From Escherichia phage T7: 37,752 bases of DNA. Of this stretch, positions 1 through 37,752 are shown one piece after another; within the stretch, counting starts at the first letter, position 1; every line of letters begins with the position of its first letter. The DNA lies in sequence record MZ375255.1; one strand, 5' to 3'. Below the pieces are notes generated by a model. The model made no database searches and was not told where the DNA came from. It saw nothing but the letters and a program-made list of their open reading frames with translations. A program made the translations under genes and the position numbers.

Positions 1-140
1 TCTCACAGTGTACGGACCTAAAGTTCCCCATAGGGGTACCTAAAGCCCAGCCAATCACCTAAAGTCAACCTTCGGTTGACCTTGAGGGTTCCCTAAGGGT
101 TTGTCTTTGGGTGTTACCTTGAGTGTCTCTCTGTGTCCCT
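1..140 (+). repeat. Left direct terminal repeat (TR), 140 bp, identical to 37613..37752
   Basis: Exact 140-nt identity between window start and end; begins TCTCACAGTGTACGG as in T7 TR. Confidence 0.95.
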
Positions 141-7427: not shown

Positions 7428-8009
7428 TGGGACTGTTAGATGGTGAAGCCTGGGAAAAAGAAAACCCGCCAGTACAAGCAACTGGGTGTATAGCTTGCTT
7501 AGAGAAAGATGACCGTTATCCACACACCTGTAACAAAGGAGCTAACGATATGACCGAACGTGAACAAGAGATGATCATTAAGTTGATAGACAATAATGAA
7601 GGTCGCCCAGATGATTTGAATGGCTGCGGTATTCTCTGCTCCAATGTCCCTTGCCACCTCTGCCCCGCAAATAACGATCAAAAGATAACCTTAGGTGAAA
7701 TCCGAGCGATGGACCCACGTAAACCACATCTGAATAAACCTGAGGTAACTCCTACAGATGACCAGCCTTCCGCTGAGACAATCGAAGGTGTCACTAAGCC
7801 TTCCCACTACATGCTGTTTGACGACATTGAGGCTATCGAAGTGATTGCTCGTTCAATGACCGTTGAGCAGTTCAAGGGATACTGCTTCGGTAACATCTTA
7901 AAGTACAGACTACGTGCTGGTAAGAAGTCAGAGTTAGCGTACTTAGAGAAAGACCTAGCGAAAGCAGACTTCTATAAAGAACTCTTTGAGAAACATAAGG
8001 ATAAATGTT

Positions 8010-10421: not shown

Positions 10422-12291
<1,870 letters not shown>

Positions 12292-12353: not shown

Positions 12354-12623
12354 ATGTCTAACGTAGCTGAAACTATCCGTCTATCCGATACAGCTGACCA
12401 GTGGAACCGTCGAGTCCACATCAACGTTCGCAACGGTAAGGCGACTATGGTTTACCGCTGGAAGGACTCTAAGTCCTCTAAGAATCACACTCAGCGTATG
12501 ACGTTGACAGATGAGCAAGCACTGCGTCTGGTCAATGCGCTTACCAAAGCTGCCGTGACAGCAATTCATGAAGCTGGTCGCGTCAATGAAGCTATGGCTA
12601 TCCTCGACAAGATTGATAACTAA
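12354..12623 (+). CDS. 4.5: Gp4.5 (89 aa)
   Basis: MSNVAETIRLSDTADQWNRRVHINV...; RBS caggagaaacc. Confidence 0.85.
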   Translation: MSNVAETIRLSDTADQWNRRVHINVRNGKATMVYRWKDSKSSKNHTQRMTLTDEQALRLVNALTKAAVTAIHEAGRVNEAMAILDKIDN

Positions 12624-12667
12624 GAGTGGTATCCTCAAGGTCGCCAAAGTGGTGGCCTTCATGAATA
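12624..12667 (+). promoter_or_regulatory. RNase III site R4.7
   Basis: gagtggtatcctcaaggtcgccaaagtggtggccttcatga hairpin. Confidence 0.55.
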
Positions 12668-12690
12668 CTATTCGACTCACTATAGGAGAT
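12668..12690 (+). promoter_or_regulatory. T7 promoter phi4.7 (now directly upstream of gene 5)
   Basis: CTATTCGACTCACTATAGGAGAT. Confidence 0.8.
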
Positions 12691-12714
12691 ATTACCTCAA
12701 TAGGAGAAATCAAT

Positions 12715-14829
12715 ATGATCGTTTCTGACATCGAAGCTAACGCCCTCTTAGAGAGCGTCACTAAGTTCCACTGCGGGGTTATCTACGACTACTCCACCGC
12801 TGAGTACGTAAGCTACCGTCCGAGTGACTTCGGTGCGTATCTGGATGCGCTGGAAGCCGAGGTTGCACGAGGCGGTCTTATTGTGTTCCACAACGGTCAC
12901 AAGTATGACGTTCCTGCATTGACCAAACTGGCAAAGTTGCAATTGAACCGAGAGTTCCACCTTCCTCGTGAGAACTGTATTGACACCCTTGTGTTGTCAC
13001 GTTTGATTCATTCCAACCTCAAGGACACCGATATGGGTCTTCTGCGTTCCGGCAAGTTGCCCGGAAAACGCTTTGGGTCTCACGCTTTGGAGGCGTGGGG
13101 TTATCGCTTAGGCGAGATGAAGGGTGAATACAAAGACGACTTTAAGCGTATGCTTGAAGAGCAGGGTGAAGAATACGTTGACGGAATGGAGTGGTGGAAC
13201 TTCAACGAAGAGATGATGGACTATAACGTTCAGGACGTTGTGGTAACTAAAGCTCTCCTTGAGAAGCTACTCTCTGACAAACATTACTTCCCTCCTGAGA
13301 TTGACTTTACGGACGTAGGATACACTACGTTCTGGTCAGAATCCCTTGAGGCCGTTGACATTGAACATCGTGCTGCATGGCTGCTCGCTAAACAAGAGCG
13401 CAACGGGTTCCCGTTTGACACAAAAGCAATCGAAGAGTTGTACGTAGAGTTAGCTGCTCGCCGCTCTGAGTTGCTCCGTAAATTGACCGAAACGTTCGGC
13501 TCGTGGTATCAGCCTAAAGGTGGCACTGAGATGTTCTGCCATCCGCGAACAGGTAAGCCACTACCTAAATACCCTCGCATTAAGACACCTAAAGTTGGTG
13601 GTATCTTTAAGAAGCCTAAGAACAAGGCACAGCGAGAAGGCCGTGAGCCTTGCGAACTTGATACCCGCGAGTACGTTGCTGGTGCTCCTTACACCCCAGT
13701 TGAACATGTTGTGTTTAACCCTTCGTCTCGTGACCACATTCAGAAGAAACTCCAAGAGGCTGGGTGGGTCCCGACCAAGTACACCGATAAGGGTGCTCCT
13801 GTGGTGGACGATGAGGTACTCGAAGGAGTACGTGTAGATGACCCTGAGAAGCAAGCCGCTATCGACCTCATTAAAGAGTACTTGATGATTCAGAAGCGAA
13901 TCGGACAGTCTGCTGAGGGAGACACAGCATGGCTTCGTTATGTTGCTGAGGATGGTAAGATTCATGGTTCTGTTAACCCTAATGGAGCAGTTACGGGTCG
14001 TGCGACCCATGCGTTCCCAAACCTTGCGCAAATTCCGGGTGTACGTTCTCCTTATGGAGAGCAGTGTCGCGCTGCTTTTGGCGCTGAGCACCATTTGGAT
14101 GGGATAACTGGTAAGCCTTGGGTTCAGGCTGGCATCGACGCATCCGGTCTTGAGCTACGCTGCTTGGCTCACTTCATGGCTCGCTTTGATAACGGCGAGT
14201 ACGCTCACGAGATTCTTAACGGCGACATCCACACTAAGAACCAGATAGCTGCTGAACTACCTACCCGAGATAACGCTAAGACGTTCATCTATGGGTTCCT
14301 CTATGGTGCTGGTGATGAGAAGATTGGACAGATTGTTGGTGCTGGTAAAGAGCGCGGTAAGGAACTCAAGAAGAAATTCCTTGAGAACACCCCCGCGATT
14401 GCAGCACTCCGCGAGTCTATCCAACAGACACTTGTCGAGTCCTCTCAATGGGTAGCTGGTGAGCAACAAGTCAAGTGGAAACGCCGCTGGATTAAAGGTC
14501 TGGATGGTCGTAAGGTACACGTTCGTAGTCCTCACGCTGCCTTGAATACCCTACTGCAATCTGCTGGTGCTCTCATCTGCAAACTGTGGATTATCAAGAC
14601 CGAAGAGATGCTCGTAGAGAAAGGCTTGAAGCATGGCTGGGATGGGGACTTTGCGTACATGGCATGGGTACATGATGAAATCCAAGTAGGCTGCCGTACC
14701 GAAGAGATTGCTCAGGTGGTCATTGAGACCGCACAAGAAGCGATGCGCTGGGTTGGAGACCACTGGAACTTCCGGTGTCTTCTGGATACCGAAGGTAAGA
14801 TGGGTCCTAATTGGGCGATTTGCCACTGA
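12715..14829 (+). CDS. 5: DNA polymerase gp5 (704 aa)
   Basis: [12 protein letters not shown] (exo motif DxE), family A polymerase motifs; RBS aggagaaatcaat. Confidence 0.98.
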
Positions 14830-14844
14830 TACAGGAGGCTACTC

Positions 14845-14863
14845 CAAAGGCATAAAACTATAG
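14845..14863 (+). pseudogene. 5.3: Gene 5.3 remnant (last 19 nt incl. stop TAG; rest deleted)
   Basis: Only 45 nt separate gene 5 stop and gene 5.5 start; no ORF. Confidence 0.6.
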
Positions 14864-14874
14864 GAGAAATTATT

Positions 14875-15174
14875 ATGGCTATGACAAAGAAATTTAAAGT
14901 GTCCTTCGACGTTACCGCAAAGATGTCGTCTGACGTTCAGGCAATCTTAGAGAAAGATATGCTGCATCTATGTAAGCAGGTCGGCTCAGGTGCGATTGTC
15001 CCCAATGGTAAACAGAAGGAAATGATTGTCCAGTTCCTGACACACGGTATGGAAGGATTGATGACATTCGTAGTACGTACATCATTTCGTGAGGCCATTA
15101 AGGACATGCACGAAGAGTATGCAGATAAGGACTCTTTCAAACAATCTCCTGCAACAGTACGGGAGGTGTTCTGA
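14875..15174 (+). CDS. 5.5: Gp5.5, H-NS-binding protein (99 aa)
   Basis: MAMTKKFKVSFDVTAKMSSDVQAILEKDMLHLCKQVG...; 99 aa. Confidence 0.92.
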   Translation: MAMTKKFKVSFDVTAKMSSDVQAILEKDMLHLCKQVGSGAIVPNGKQKEMIVQFLTHGMEGLMTFVVRTSFREAIKDMHEEYADKDSFKQSPATVREVF

Positions 15175-16430: not shown

Positions 16431-16530
16431 CGTATATTGGTCTGGGTCTTTGTGTTCTCGGAGTGTGCCTCATTTCGTGGGGCCTTTGGGACTTAGCCAG
16501 AATAATCAAGTCGTTACACGACACTAAGTG
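16418..16530 (+). pseudogene. 6.3: Gene 6.3 region with apparent frame discontinuity (GTG frame stops at 16502-16504; C-terminal coding continues in -1 frame to TGA 16528-16530)
   Basis: GTG-initiated hydrophobic peptide VETVAYIGLGLCVLGVCLISWGLWDLAR then stop; ...IIKSLHDTK* in adjacent frame. Confidence 0.45.
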
Positions 16531-16550
16531 ATAAACTCAAGGTCCCTAAA

Positions 16551-16573
16551 TTAATACGACTCACTATAGGGAG
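16551..16573 (+). promoter_or_regulatory. T7 class III promoter phi6.5
   Basis: TAATACGACTCACTATAGGGAGA. Confidence 0.95.
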
Positions 16574-16628
16574 ATAGGGGCCTTTACGATTATTACTTTA
16601 AGATTTAACTCTAAGAGGAATCTTTATT

Positions 16629-16883
16629 ATGTTAACACCTATTAACCAATTACTTAAGAACCCTAACGATATTCCAGATGTACCTCGTGCAACCGCTGAG
16701 TATCTACAGGTTCGATTCAACTATGCGTACCTCGAAGCGTCTGGTCATATAGGACTTATGCGTGCTAATGGTTGTAGTGAGGCCCACATCTTGGGTTTCA
16801 TTCAGGGCCTACAGTATGCCTCTAACGTCATTGACGAGATTGAGTTACGCAAGGAACAACTAAGAGATGATGGGGAGGATTGA
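16629..16883 (+). CDS. 6.5: Gp6.5 (84 aa)
   Basis: [27 protein letters not shown]...; RBS agaggaatc. Confidence 0.88.
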
Positions 16884-37412: not shown

Positions 37413-37460
37413 ATGTTCCGCTTATTGTTGAACCTACTGCGGCATAGAGTCAAGTCCTAA
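37413..37460 (+). pseudogene. 19.5: Gene 19.5 truncated to 15 codons by ~189-bp deletion
   Basis: RBS aagggaggag; MFRLLLNLLRHRVKS* where reference gp19.5 is 49 aa. Confidence 0.7.
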
Positions 37461-37612: not shown

Positions 37613-37752
37613 TCTCACAGTGTACGGACCTAAAGTTCCCCATAGGGGTACCTAAAGCCCAGCCAATCACCTAAAGTCAACCTTCGGTTGACCTTGAGGG
37701 TTCCCTAAGGGTTTGTCTTTGGGTGTTACCTTGAGTGTCTCTCTGTGTCCCT
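37613..37752 (+). repeat. Right direct terminal repeat (TR), 140 bp, identical to 1..140
   Basis: Exact identity with window positions 1..140. Confidence 0.95.

What the first reader, a model, noticed from the sequence alone, without database searches (positions are those of the whole stretch)
14830..14874. Gene 5.3 deleted except its last 19 nt
45 nt lie between gene 5 and gene 5.5, where reference has a 118-codon gene 5.3. The retained tail caaaggcataaaactatag plus the intergenic region preserves the gene 5.5 RBS (aggagaaattatt). The deletion begins exactly where the gene 5.3 ATG should be.
Basis: partly seen in the sequence, partly recalled or inferred. Interest (0 to 1): 0.35.

Follow-up and report, generated by a model that had tools for sequence, protein, structure and literature searches.

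The report
Engineered gene 5.3 deletion in T7
The window is a laboratory genome-reduced bacteriophage T7, and the short gap between its DNA polymerase gene and gene 5.5 is the scar of a published CRISPR-guided deletion of the dispensable nuclease-like gene 5.3, so it is real but already known.

Summary
Gene 5 stops at 14829 and gene 5.5 starts at 14875, 45 nt later. Reference T7 (NC_001604) has 383 nt there, including gene 5.3. The missing block is T7 16483-16820 (338 nt). It starts at the A of the 5.3 ATG and leaves the last 19 nt of 5.3. The junction (14844|14845) has no microhomology.

The whole window is T7 carrying seven deletions. It is collinear end to end with GenBank MZ375270, "Mutant Escherichia phage T7 clone T7_190S". 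At least 40 sibling records carry the identical junction. By clone naming and deletion content (the accession table was not readable), these appear to be the CiPGr clones of Yuan et al. 2022 (PMC9825161). That method uses Cas9 counter-selection plus 50-bp homology arms designed to delete whole genes, and the paper names gp5.3 as the deletion that became dominant.

The 19-nt tail was probably kept because the 5.3 stop codon (TAG, 14861-14863) overlaps the gene 5.5 Shine-Dalgarno sequence (AGGAG, 14862-14866).

gp5.3 is a PD-(D/E)XK endonuclease-family protein found only sporadically in T7-like phages. Phage 13a naturally has no gene in this slot.

Verdict: a known engineered scar, of low interest.

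The parts
12715..14829 (+). Gene 5 (T7 DNA polymerase), intact. The stop TGA is at 14827-14829. It carries K404T (window 13925).
14830..14844 (+). Retained gene 5.3 leader (T7 16468-16482). Its Shine-Dalgarno AGGAGG (14833-14838) is now orphaned, with no start codon downstream at a usable spacing.
14844..14845 (.). Deletion junction. T7 16482 is joined to T7 16821, 338 nt are missing, and there is no microhomology.
14845..14863 (+). Retained last 19 nt of gene 5.3, including its TAG stop (14861-14863).
14862..14866 (+). Gene 5.5 Shine-Dalgarno AGGAG. It overlaps the AG of the 5.3 stop codon and lies 8 nt upstream of the ATG.
   Evidence: conserved in the natural empty site of phage 13a
14875..15174 (+). 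Gene 5.5 (H-NS-interacting protein), intact and identical to T7.

Best explanation
The 45-nt interval is the scar of a designed, donor-templated deletion of T7 gene 5.3. [quoted passage not shown] Cas9 guided to protospacers inside gene 5.3 cuts wild-type genomes. Genomes repaired from a plasmid donor lose the gene and all its protospacers, escape cutting, and sweep the population. By inference, the donor had two 50-bp arms, T7 16433-16482 and T7 16821-16870. The loss is tolerated because gp5.3 is an accessory PD-(D/E)XK endonuclease-like protein. The region has no promoter or terminator: genes 5 to 6.3 are read from upstream class II promoters. The last 19 nt of 5.3 were kept so that 30 nt upstream of the gene 5.5 ATG stay native. 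An ATG-to-TAG deletion would have clipped the gene 5.5 Shine-Dalgarno sequence, which overlaps the 5.3 stop codon. What is shown: the deletion boundaries, the lack of microhomology, identity with deposited mutant clones, and the published method. What is inferred: the exact donor arms and the reason for the 19-nt tail.
For: Searches give the deletion as T7 16483-16820 with zero microhomology, starting at the A of the ATG. One search shows that the same genome has other ORF-landmark deletions without microhomology: gene 1.4 (7608-7763, exactly ATG to stop) and gene 4.7 (13927-14334, exactly ATG to stop). Its 19.5 deletion, by contrast, has a 9-nt direct repeat. In one search, the 40 best hits span the junction at 100% identity in one piece. 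All 40 are Escherichia phage T7 records in the MZ3752xx and OL9647xx series. Searches show these are titled 'Mutant Escherichia phage T7 clone T7_140S / T7_100S / T7_5t2 / T7_190S'. One search shows the window aligns to MZ375270 (T7_190S) in a single 37.7-kb piece at 99.9% identity, with the same deletions. [quoted passage not shown] Searches find no T7 promoter, convincing sigma-70 promoter or terminator at the site. Searches place gp5.3 in Pfam PF11645 PDDEXK_5 (E = 1e-10), with a weak match to PDB 2OST. One search finds gp5.3 homologues in only 100 phage records, whereas the gene 5/5.5 region matches 691. Searches show that phage 13a naturally lacks any gene here.
Against: The paper's supplementary cassette list and accession table are not held. 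I therefore could not match the junction to the designed donor, or confirm the accession-to-paper link other than by clone naming and content. The paper says 'entire gene', yet 19 nt remain. The amount retained upstream of the next gene also varies between deletions in this genome (18, 19, 27, 30 and about 34 nt), so no single design rule is evident. The window is not identical to any record I compared: it has 17 SNPs against T7_190S.
Confidence: 0.95

Rival explanations
1. The deletion arose spontaneously by illegitimate recombination or replication slippage during passage. This is the classical route to T7 deletions between short direct repeats.
For:: the same genome does carry deletions of that type. 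The 19.5 deletion has a 9-nt direct repeat, ATAGAGTCA. The 0.4-0.6 deletion lies between imperfectly similar 12-mers; the paper reports undesigned large deletions in these two regions.
Against:: the 5.3 junction has no shared base at all. Its left end is exactly the first base of the ATG, as in the 1.4 and 4.7 deletions; the identical junction recurs in dozens of clones; clone T7_100S shares the same left boundary but has a different right end, which fits a fixed left homology arm.
Confidence: 0.03
2. The phage is a natural T7-like isolate that never had gene 5.3, i.e. an ancestral empty site.
For:: Teseptimavirus 13a has only 19 nt between gene 5 and gene 5.5; gp5.3 is sporadic among relatives. 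T3 has an unrelated HNH endonuclease gene in the same slot.
Against:: the window keeps the 15-nt 5.3 leader, with its Shine-Dalgarno sequence, and 19 nt of 5.3 coding sequence. The 13a empty site lacks most of this. The flanks are 100% T7, and the genome is 99.9% identical to T7 outside the deletions.
Confidence: 0.01
3. The gap is an assembly or sequencing artefact that collapsed the region.
For: The records contain small homopolymer and terminal-repeat indels that could be sequencing noise.
Against:: many independently sequenced clones carry the same junction, while early-transfer clones of the same series still have 5.3; the paper confirmed the deletion by PCR; no repeat exists that could collapse an assembly here.
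Confidence: 0.01

Closest known systems
CiPGr 'cassette-gene' deletions in T7 (Yuan, Shi, Jiang and Ma, Nucleic Acids Res 2022, PMC9825161; GenBank MZ375233-MZ375294 and OL9647xx)
   Same: The 5.3 junction is identical. The window carries the same deletions as clone T7_190S, which align in one piece. The clone-naming scheme matches. The paper names gp5.3 as a deletion that became dominant.
   Different: The window differs from the nearest record I compared (T7_190S) by 17 SNPs and a few small indels. It is a sibling clone, not that record.
Natural empty site between gene 5 and gene 5.5 in Escherichia phage 13a (NC_011045)
   Same: Gene 5 is followed directly by gene 5.5. The ...CTATAGGAGAAATTATT-ATG translation-initiation region is the same.
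   Different: Phage 13a has a 19-nt spacer. The window has 45 nt, because it keeps the 5.3 leader with an orphan Shine-Dalgarno sequence, plus 12 more nt of the 5.3 tail.
Classical spontaneous T7 deletions between short direct repeats (established T7 genetics from the Studier laboratory; cited from my own knowledge)
   Same: They also remove non-essential genes and are viable. Two deletions of this kind sit in the same window (0.4-0.6 and 19.5).
   Different: The 5.3 junction has no repeat and sits on ORF landmarks.
Recombinant T7-B (PV223880 and related records)
   Same: It has the same 45-nt gene 5 to 5.5 spacing and the same breakpoints.
   Different: The first retained base is A instead of C (CTACTC|AAAAGG). 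I did not trace the provenance of this record.

Membership tests
CiPGr cassette-gene engineered deletion (Cas9 plus 50-bp-arm donor) | Deletion boundaries placed on ORF landmarks rather than on repeats | tested here: met
   The left end is the A of the 5.3 ATG (T7 16483). The right end is 30 nt upstream of the 5.5 ATG. There is zero microhomology.
CiPGr cassette-gene engineered deletion (Cas9 plus 50-bp-arm donor) | Co-occurrence with other designed single-gene deletions in the same genome | tested here: met
   Genes 1.4 and 4.7 are deleted exactly from ATG to stop. Genes 3.8 and 4.3 are deleted internally.
CiPGr cassette-gene engineered deletion (Cas9 plus 50-bp-arm donor) | Identical junction in the clones deposited from that experiment | tested here: met
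   The 40 best hits span the junction at 100% identity in one piece. The records are titled 'Mutant Escherichia phage T7 clone T7_140S/190S...'. The window is collinear over its full length with T7_190S.
CiPGr cassette-gene engineered deletion (Cas9 plus 50-bp-arm donor) | Junction equals the synthesized homology template for gp5.3 | not testable with these tools
   The supplementary cassette tables are not held.
Spontaneous direct-repeat-mediated deletion | A short direct repeat at both ends of the deleted segment, with one copy retained | tested here: not met
   The 5.3 junction has 0 nt of overlap, compared with 9 nt at the 19.5 deletion in the same genome.
Naturally 5.3-less Teseptimavirus (13a-type empty site) | No remnant of the 5.3 leader or coding sequence between gene 5 and gene 5.5 | tested here: not met
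   The window retains 15 nt of the 5.3 leader and 19 nt of 5.3 coding sequence, all identical to T7.
PD-(D/E)XK endonuclease, Pfam PF11645 PDDEXK_5 (the deleted gene's product, gp5.3) | Match to the family profile above the curated threshold | tested here: met
   The score is 42.1 bits against a cut-off of 26.1, E = 1.1e-10. There is a weak match to PDB 2OST, 'Putative endonuclease', E = 0.013. Nuclease or homing activity was not tested.

The most novel reading that the evidence does not exclude
The residual scar may not be neutral. The orphaned 5.3 Shine-Dalgarno sequence (AGGAGG, 14833-14838) lies 36 nt upstream of the gene 5.5 ATG. The junction also creates CUCC (14842-14845), which is complementary to the 5.5 Shine-Dalgarno GGAG. 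Together these could change gp5.5/5.7/5.9 translation, as a standby ribosome site or a weak occluding hairpin. That could have contributed to the rapid sweep of the 5.3 deletion, beyond mere loss of a costly selfish nuclease gene.
Probability: 0.05. Interest if true: 0.2.

Novelty: already known. Interest (0 to 1): 0.07.

Why it matters
It matters mainly for bookkeeping. It identifies the window as a laboratory-engineered, serially passaged T7, not a natural isolate. Gene absences and odd junctions elsewhere in the window should therefore be read as design scars or passage mutations. It also illustrates a practical design point. Where a stop codon overlaps the next gene's Shine-Dalgarno sequence, a 'whole-gene' deletion has to leave a tail. 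Finally, it agrees with natural variation: the slot between gene 5 and gene 5.5 is empty in 13a, holds an HNH gene in T3, and holds a PD-(D/E)XK gene in T7. That pattern marks the slot as a landing site for dispensable, endonuclease-type genes.

Tried and rejected
- **Accession search:** I searched the paper library for MZ375249, MZ375260, MZ375294 and OL964739 and found nothing.
- **Supplements:** I tried to read the CiPGr supplements for cassette sequences and the accession table, but none are held.
- **gp5.3 fitness data:** I looked in the PhageMaP preprint for fitness data on gp5.3 and found no mention.
- **Hidden regulatory element:** I looked for one in the deleted or retained DNA. The T7 promoter consensus scan finds nothing within 1.7 kb of the junction. 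The sigma-70 and terminator scan gives only two weak minus-strand promoter-like hits and no terminator. The ACTATAGGAGA in the tail resembles only the -5 to +6 part of a T7 promoter and lacks the upstream specificity region, so I rejected it as a promoter.
- **RBS accessibility:** I tested whether the new junction changes access to the gene 5.5 RBS. Mean pairing probability over -15..+3 is 0.47, against 0.46 in wild type, so no meaningful difference is predicted.
- **Design rule:** I tried to derive one rule for how much sequence is kept upstream of the next gene. The values vary (18, 19, 27, 30 and about 34 nt), so no rule could be stated.

Full report
**Observation.** Gene 5 (DNA polymerase) ends with TGA at 14827-14829, and gene 5.5 starts with ATG at 14875. 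The interval 14830-14874 is therefore 45 nt. In reference T7 (NC_001604), gene 5 ends at 16467, gene 5.3 occupies 16483-16839 (118 codons), and gene 5.5 starts at 16851, giving a 383-nt interval. A direct alignment shows one clean gap with perfectly identical flanks. A junction analysis places the deletion at T7 16483-16820 (338 nt) with no base of overlap between the two ends, so the breakpoint is unambiguous. The deletion starts at the A of the 5.3 ATG. The retained tail, caaaggcataaaactatag (14845-14863), is the last 19 nt of 5.3 including its TAG.

**Anatomy of the scar.**
- 14830-14844 is the untouched 5.3 leader. Its strong Shine-Dalgarno AGGAGG (14833-14838) now has no start codon.
- 14845-14863 is the 5.3 tail.
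- The gene 5.5 Shine-Dalgarno AGGAG (14862-14866) overlaps the AG of the 5.3 TAG stop (14861-14863) and sits 8 nt before the ATG.
- An ATG-to-stop deletion would have left ...CTACTC|GAGAAATT... and truncated that Shine-Dalgarno sequence. Keeping 19 nt leaves exactly 30 native nt upstream of gene 5.5. This reading follows from the sequence, but the designers' motive is my inference.
- No T7 promoter lies within 1.7 kb of the junction. The nearest consensus match downstream is phi6.5 at 16552.
- The generic scan gives no terminator and only two weak minus-strand sigma-70-like hits.
- Nothing regulatory that is annotated in the reference lies in 16483-16820.
- Predicted RNA accessibility of the 5.5 initiation region is unchanged, 0.47 against 0.46. 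This holds although the junction creates a CUCC that can pair with the GGAG.

**What the window is.** A whole-window BLAST against T7 shows 99.9% identity interrupted by seven deletions:

| Gene(s) affected | T7 coordinates or size | Junction character |
|---|---|---|
| 0.4-0.6 | 563 nt | imperfect 12-mer similarity |
| 1.4 | 7608-7763 | exactly ATG to stop |
| 3.8 | 11254-11545 | no repeat once a blastn-extended mismatch is removed |
| 4.3 | 198 nt | 3-nt ambiguity |
| 4.7 | 13927-14334 | exactly ATG to stop |
| 5.3 | 16483-16820 | no microhomology |
| 19.5 | 189 nt | 9-nt direct repeat ATAGAGTCA |

The deletions therefore fall into two classes: repeat-free ones set on ORF landmarks, and repeat-associated ones.

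**Origin.**
- The 1.1-kb stretch spanning the junction matches the 40 best-hit phage records at 100% identity in a single piece. All 40 are Escherichia phage T7 records in the MZ3752xx and OL9647xx series.
- The records I opened are titled 'Mutant Escherichia phage T7 clone T7_140S', 'T7_100S', 'T7_190S' and 'T7_5t2'.
- The window aligns to T7_190S (MZ375270, 37,751 bp) in one 37.7-kb piece. The two differ by 17 SNPs and a few small indels, and carry the same deletions.
- A 60-nt junction probe separates the records. About half of the 106 matching T7 records have the intact gene (two pieces about 340 nt apart). The rest have the junction in one piece, and every single-piece record listed lies in the MZ3752xx, OL9647xx or PV2238xx series (those opened are titled 'Mutant ... 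clone'), not among natural isolates.
- The naming (transfer number plus L or S for large or small plaque) and the content match Yuan et al. 2022 (PMC9825161).
- That paper describes CiPGr. On-chip cassettes carry a Cas9 spacer and a 2 x 50-bp homology template. 'Cassette-gene' versions were designed to delete entire genes. T7 was passaged 300 times on library cells, and plaques were picked every 10 transfers.
- The paper singles out gp5.3. Its deletion was followed by PCR and became dominant in the population.
- It also reports undesigned large deletions at gp0.3-0.6 and gp19.5. These correspond to the repeat-associated deletions seen here.
- I could not read the supplementary cassette list or accession table. 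The link therefore rests on record titles, naming and content.

**Mechanism.** Cas9 cuts protospacers inside 5.3. Genomes repaired from the plasmid donor lose the gene and the targets, and so outgrow the cut wild type. This much is shown by the paper. By inference, the donor arms are T7 16433-16482 and 16821-16870. Clone T7_100S has the same left boundary but a right end inside gene 5.5. That fits a fixed left arm with an aberrant right-hand resolution. The deletion is viable for two reasons. Genes 5 to 6.3 are co-transcribed from upstream class II promoters, each with its own ribosome-binding site. In addition, gp5.3 is accessory.

**What was lost.** gp5.3 matches Pfam PF11645 (PDDEXK_5, PD-(D/E)XK endonuclease) at 42 bits, E = 1e-10. 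It falls in a PHROG of unknown function. It matches PDB 2OST weakly, E = 0.013. From memory, 2OST is the intron-encoded homing endonuclease I-Ssp6803I; the tool names it only 'Putative endonuclease'. Homologues occur in only 100 phage records, 57 of them T7 itself. The flanking gene 5/5.5 region, by contrast, matches 691 records. In T3 the same slot holds an unrelated HNH endonuclease gene. In phage 13a the slot is empty, with a 19-nt spacer sharing the CTATAGGAGAAATTATT-ATG initiation region. Gene 5.3 therefore looks like a dispensable, possibly mobile, endonuclease gene. The engineered deletion approximates an arrangement that already exists in nature.

**Rivals.**
- Spontaneous repeat-mediated deletion is disfavoured. 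There is no microhomology, the breakpoint sits at the ATG, and the junction recurs across clones.
- Ancestral absence is excluded by the retained 5.3 leader and tail.
- An assembly artefact is excluded by the many independent clones and the paper's PCR.

**Verdict.** The finding is real, correctly described and fully explained by a published engineering experiment. Novelty: already known. Interest is low. The only unexcluded non-trivial idea is that the orphan Shine-Dalgarno sequence or the junction CUCC tunes gene 5.5 translation, and nothing here supports it.

Noticed in passing
window 7024|7025 (T7 7608-7763): The exact ATG-to-TAA deletion of gene 1.4 also removes the TAA that forms positions -17 to -15 of T7 promoter phi1.5. 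The promoter now reads TTTTACGACTCACTAAAGGAGG, with -16 and -15 changed from A to T, which may weaken it.
   Followed up: partly
window 10485-12233, junction 10513|10514: The gene 3.8 deletion (T7 11254-11545) keeps the first 29 nt of 3.8 and fuses them in frame to the gene 4A leader. The result is an ORF that would add 16 residues ([16 protein letters not shown]) to the N-terminus of the primase-helicase if translation starts at the 3.8 start site. The native 4A RBS and ATG are still present.
   Followed up: partly
window 20928 (T7 22904): There is a G to T substitution at the +1 transcription start of the phi10 promoter, the major capsid gene promoter. The sequence now reads CACTATATGGAGA. 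It may be a passage-selected change in capsid expression.
   Followed up: no
window about 9943 (T7 10678-10682): One A is lost from an A5 run near the end of gene 3 (endonuclease I). The C-terminus changes from RKGGKK* to GKEERNNGSCTV*. The change is absent from sibling clone T7_190S, so it could be real or a homopolymer sequencing error.
   Followed up: partly
window 1-140 and 37613-37752: Both terminal repeats lack the same 18 nt (T7 99-116), plus two single bases. The repeat is therefore 140 nt rather than 160 nt.
   Followed up: no
window about 1320-1333 and 37444-37452: The 563-nt deletion in genes 0.4-0.6 lies between imperfectly similar 12-mers. The 189-nt deletion in gene 19.5 lies between 9-nt direct repeats (ATAGAGTCA). 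Both look spontaneous, and they match the undesigned 'large fragment' losses the CiPGr paper reports.
   Followed up: partly
window 13925 (T7 15563): An A to C change gives K404T in the T7 DNA polymerase. It is not present in sibling clone T7_190S.
   Followed up: no
L005 (MZ375252, T7_100S) and L004 (PV223880, T7-B): T7_100S has the same left breakpoint, but its deletion runs 16 nt into gene 5.5 and removes that gene's RBS and start codon. T7-B has the same breakpoints, with C to A at the first retained base. Both are variant outcomes at the same engineered site.
   Followed up: partly
window 12568-14829 and the GenBank annotation of the sibling clones: After the 4.7 deletion, the reading frame upstream of gene 5 is open. 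Mechanical ORF calling, and the deposited annotation (for example 12616..14832 in T7_140S), therefore extend the DNA polymerase N-terminally by 35-49 codons. The native start is at window 12715.
   Followed up: partly
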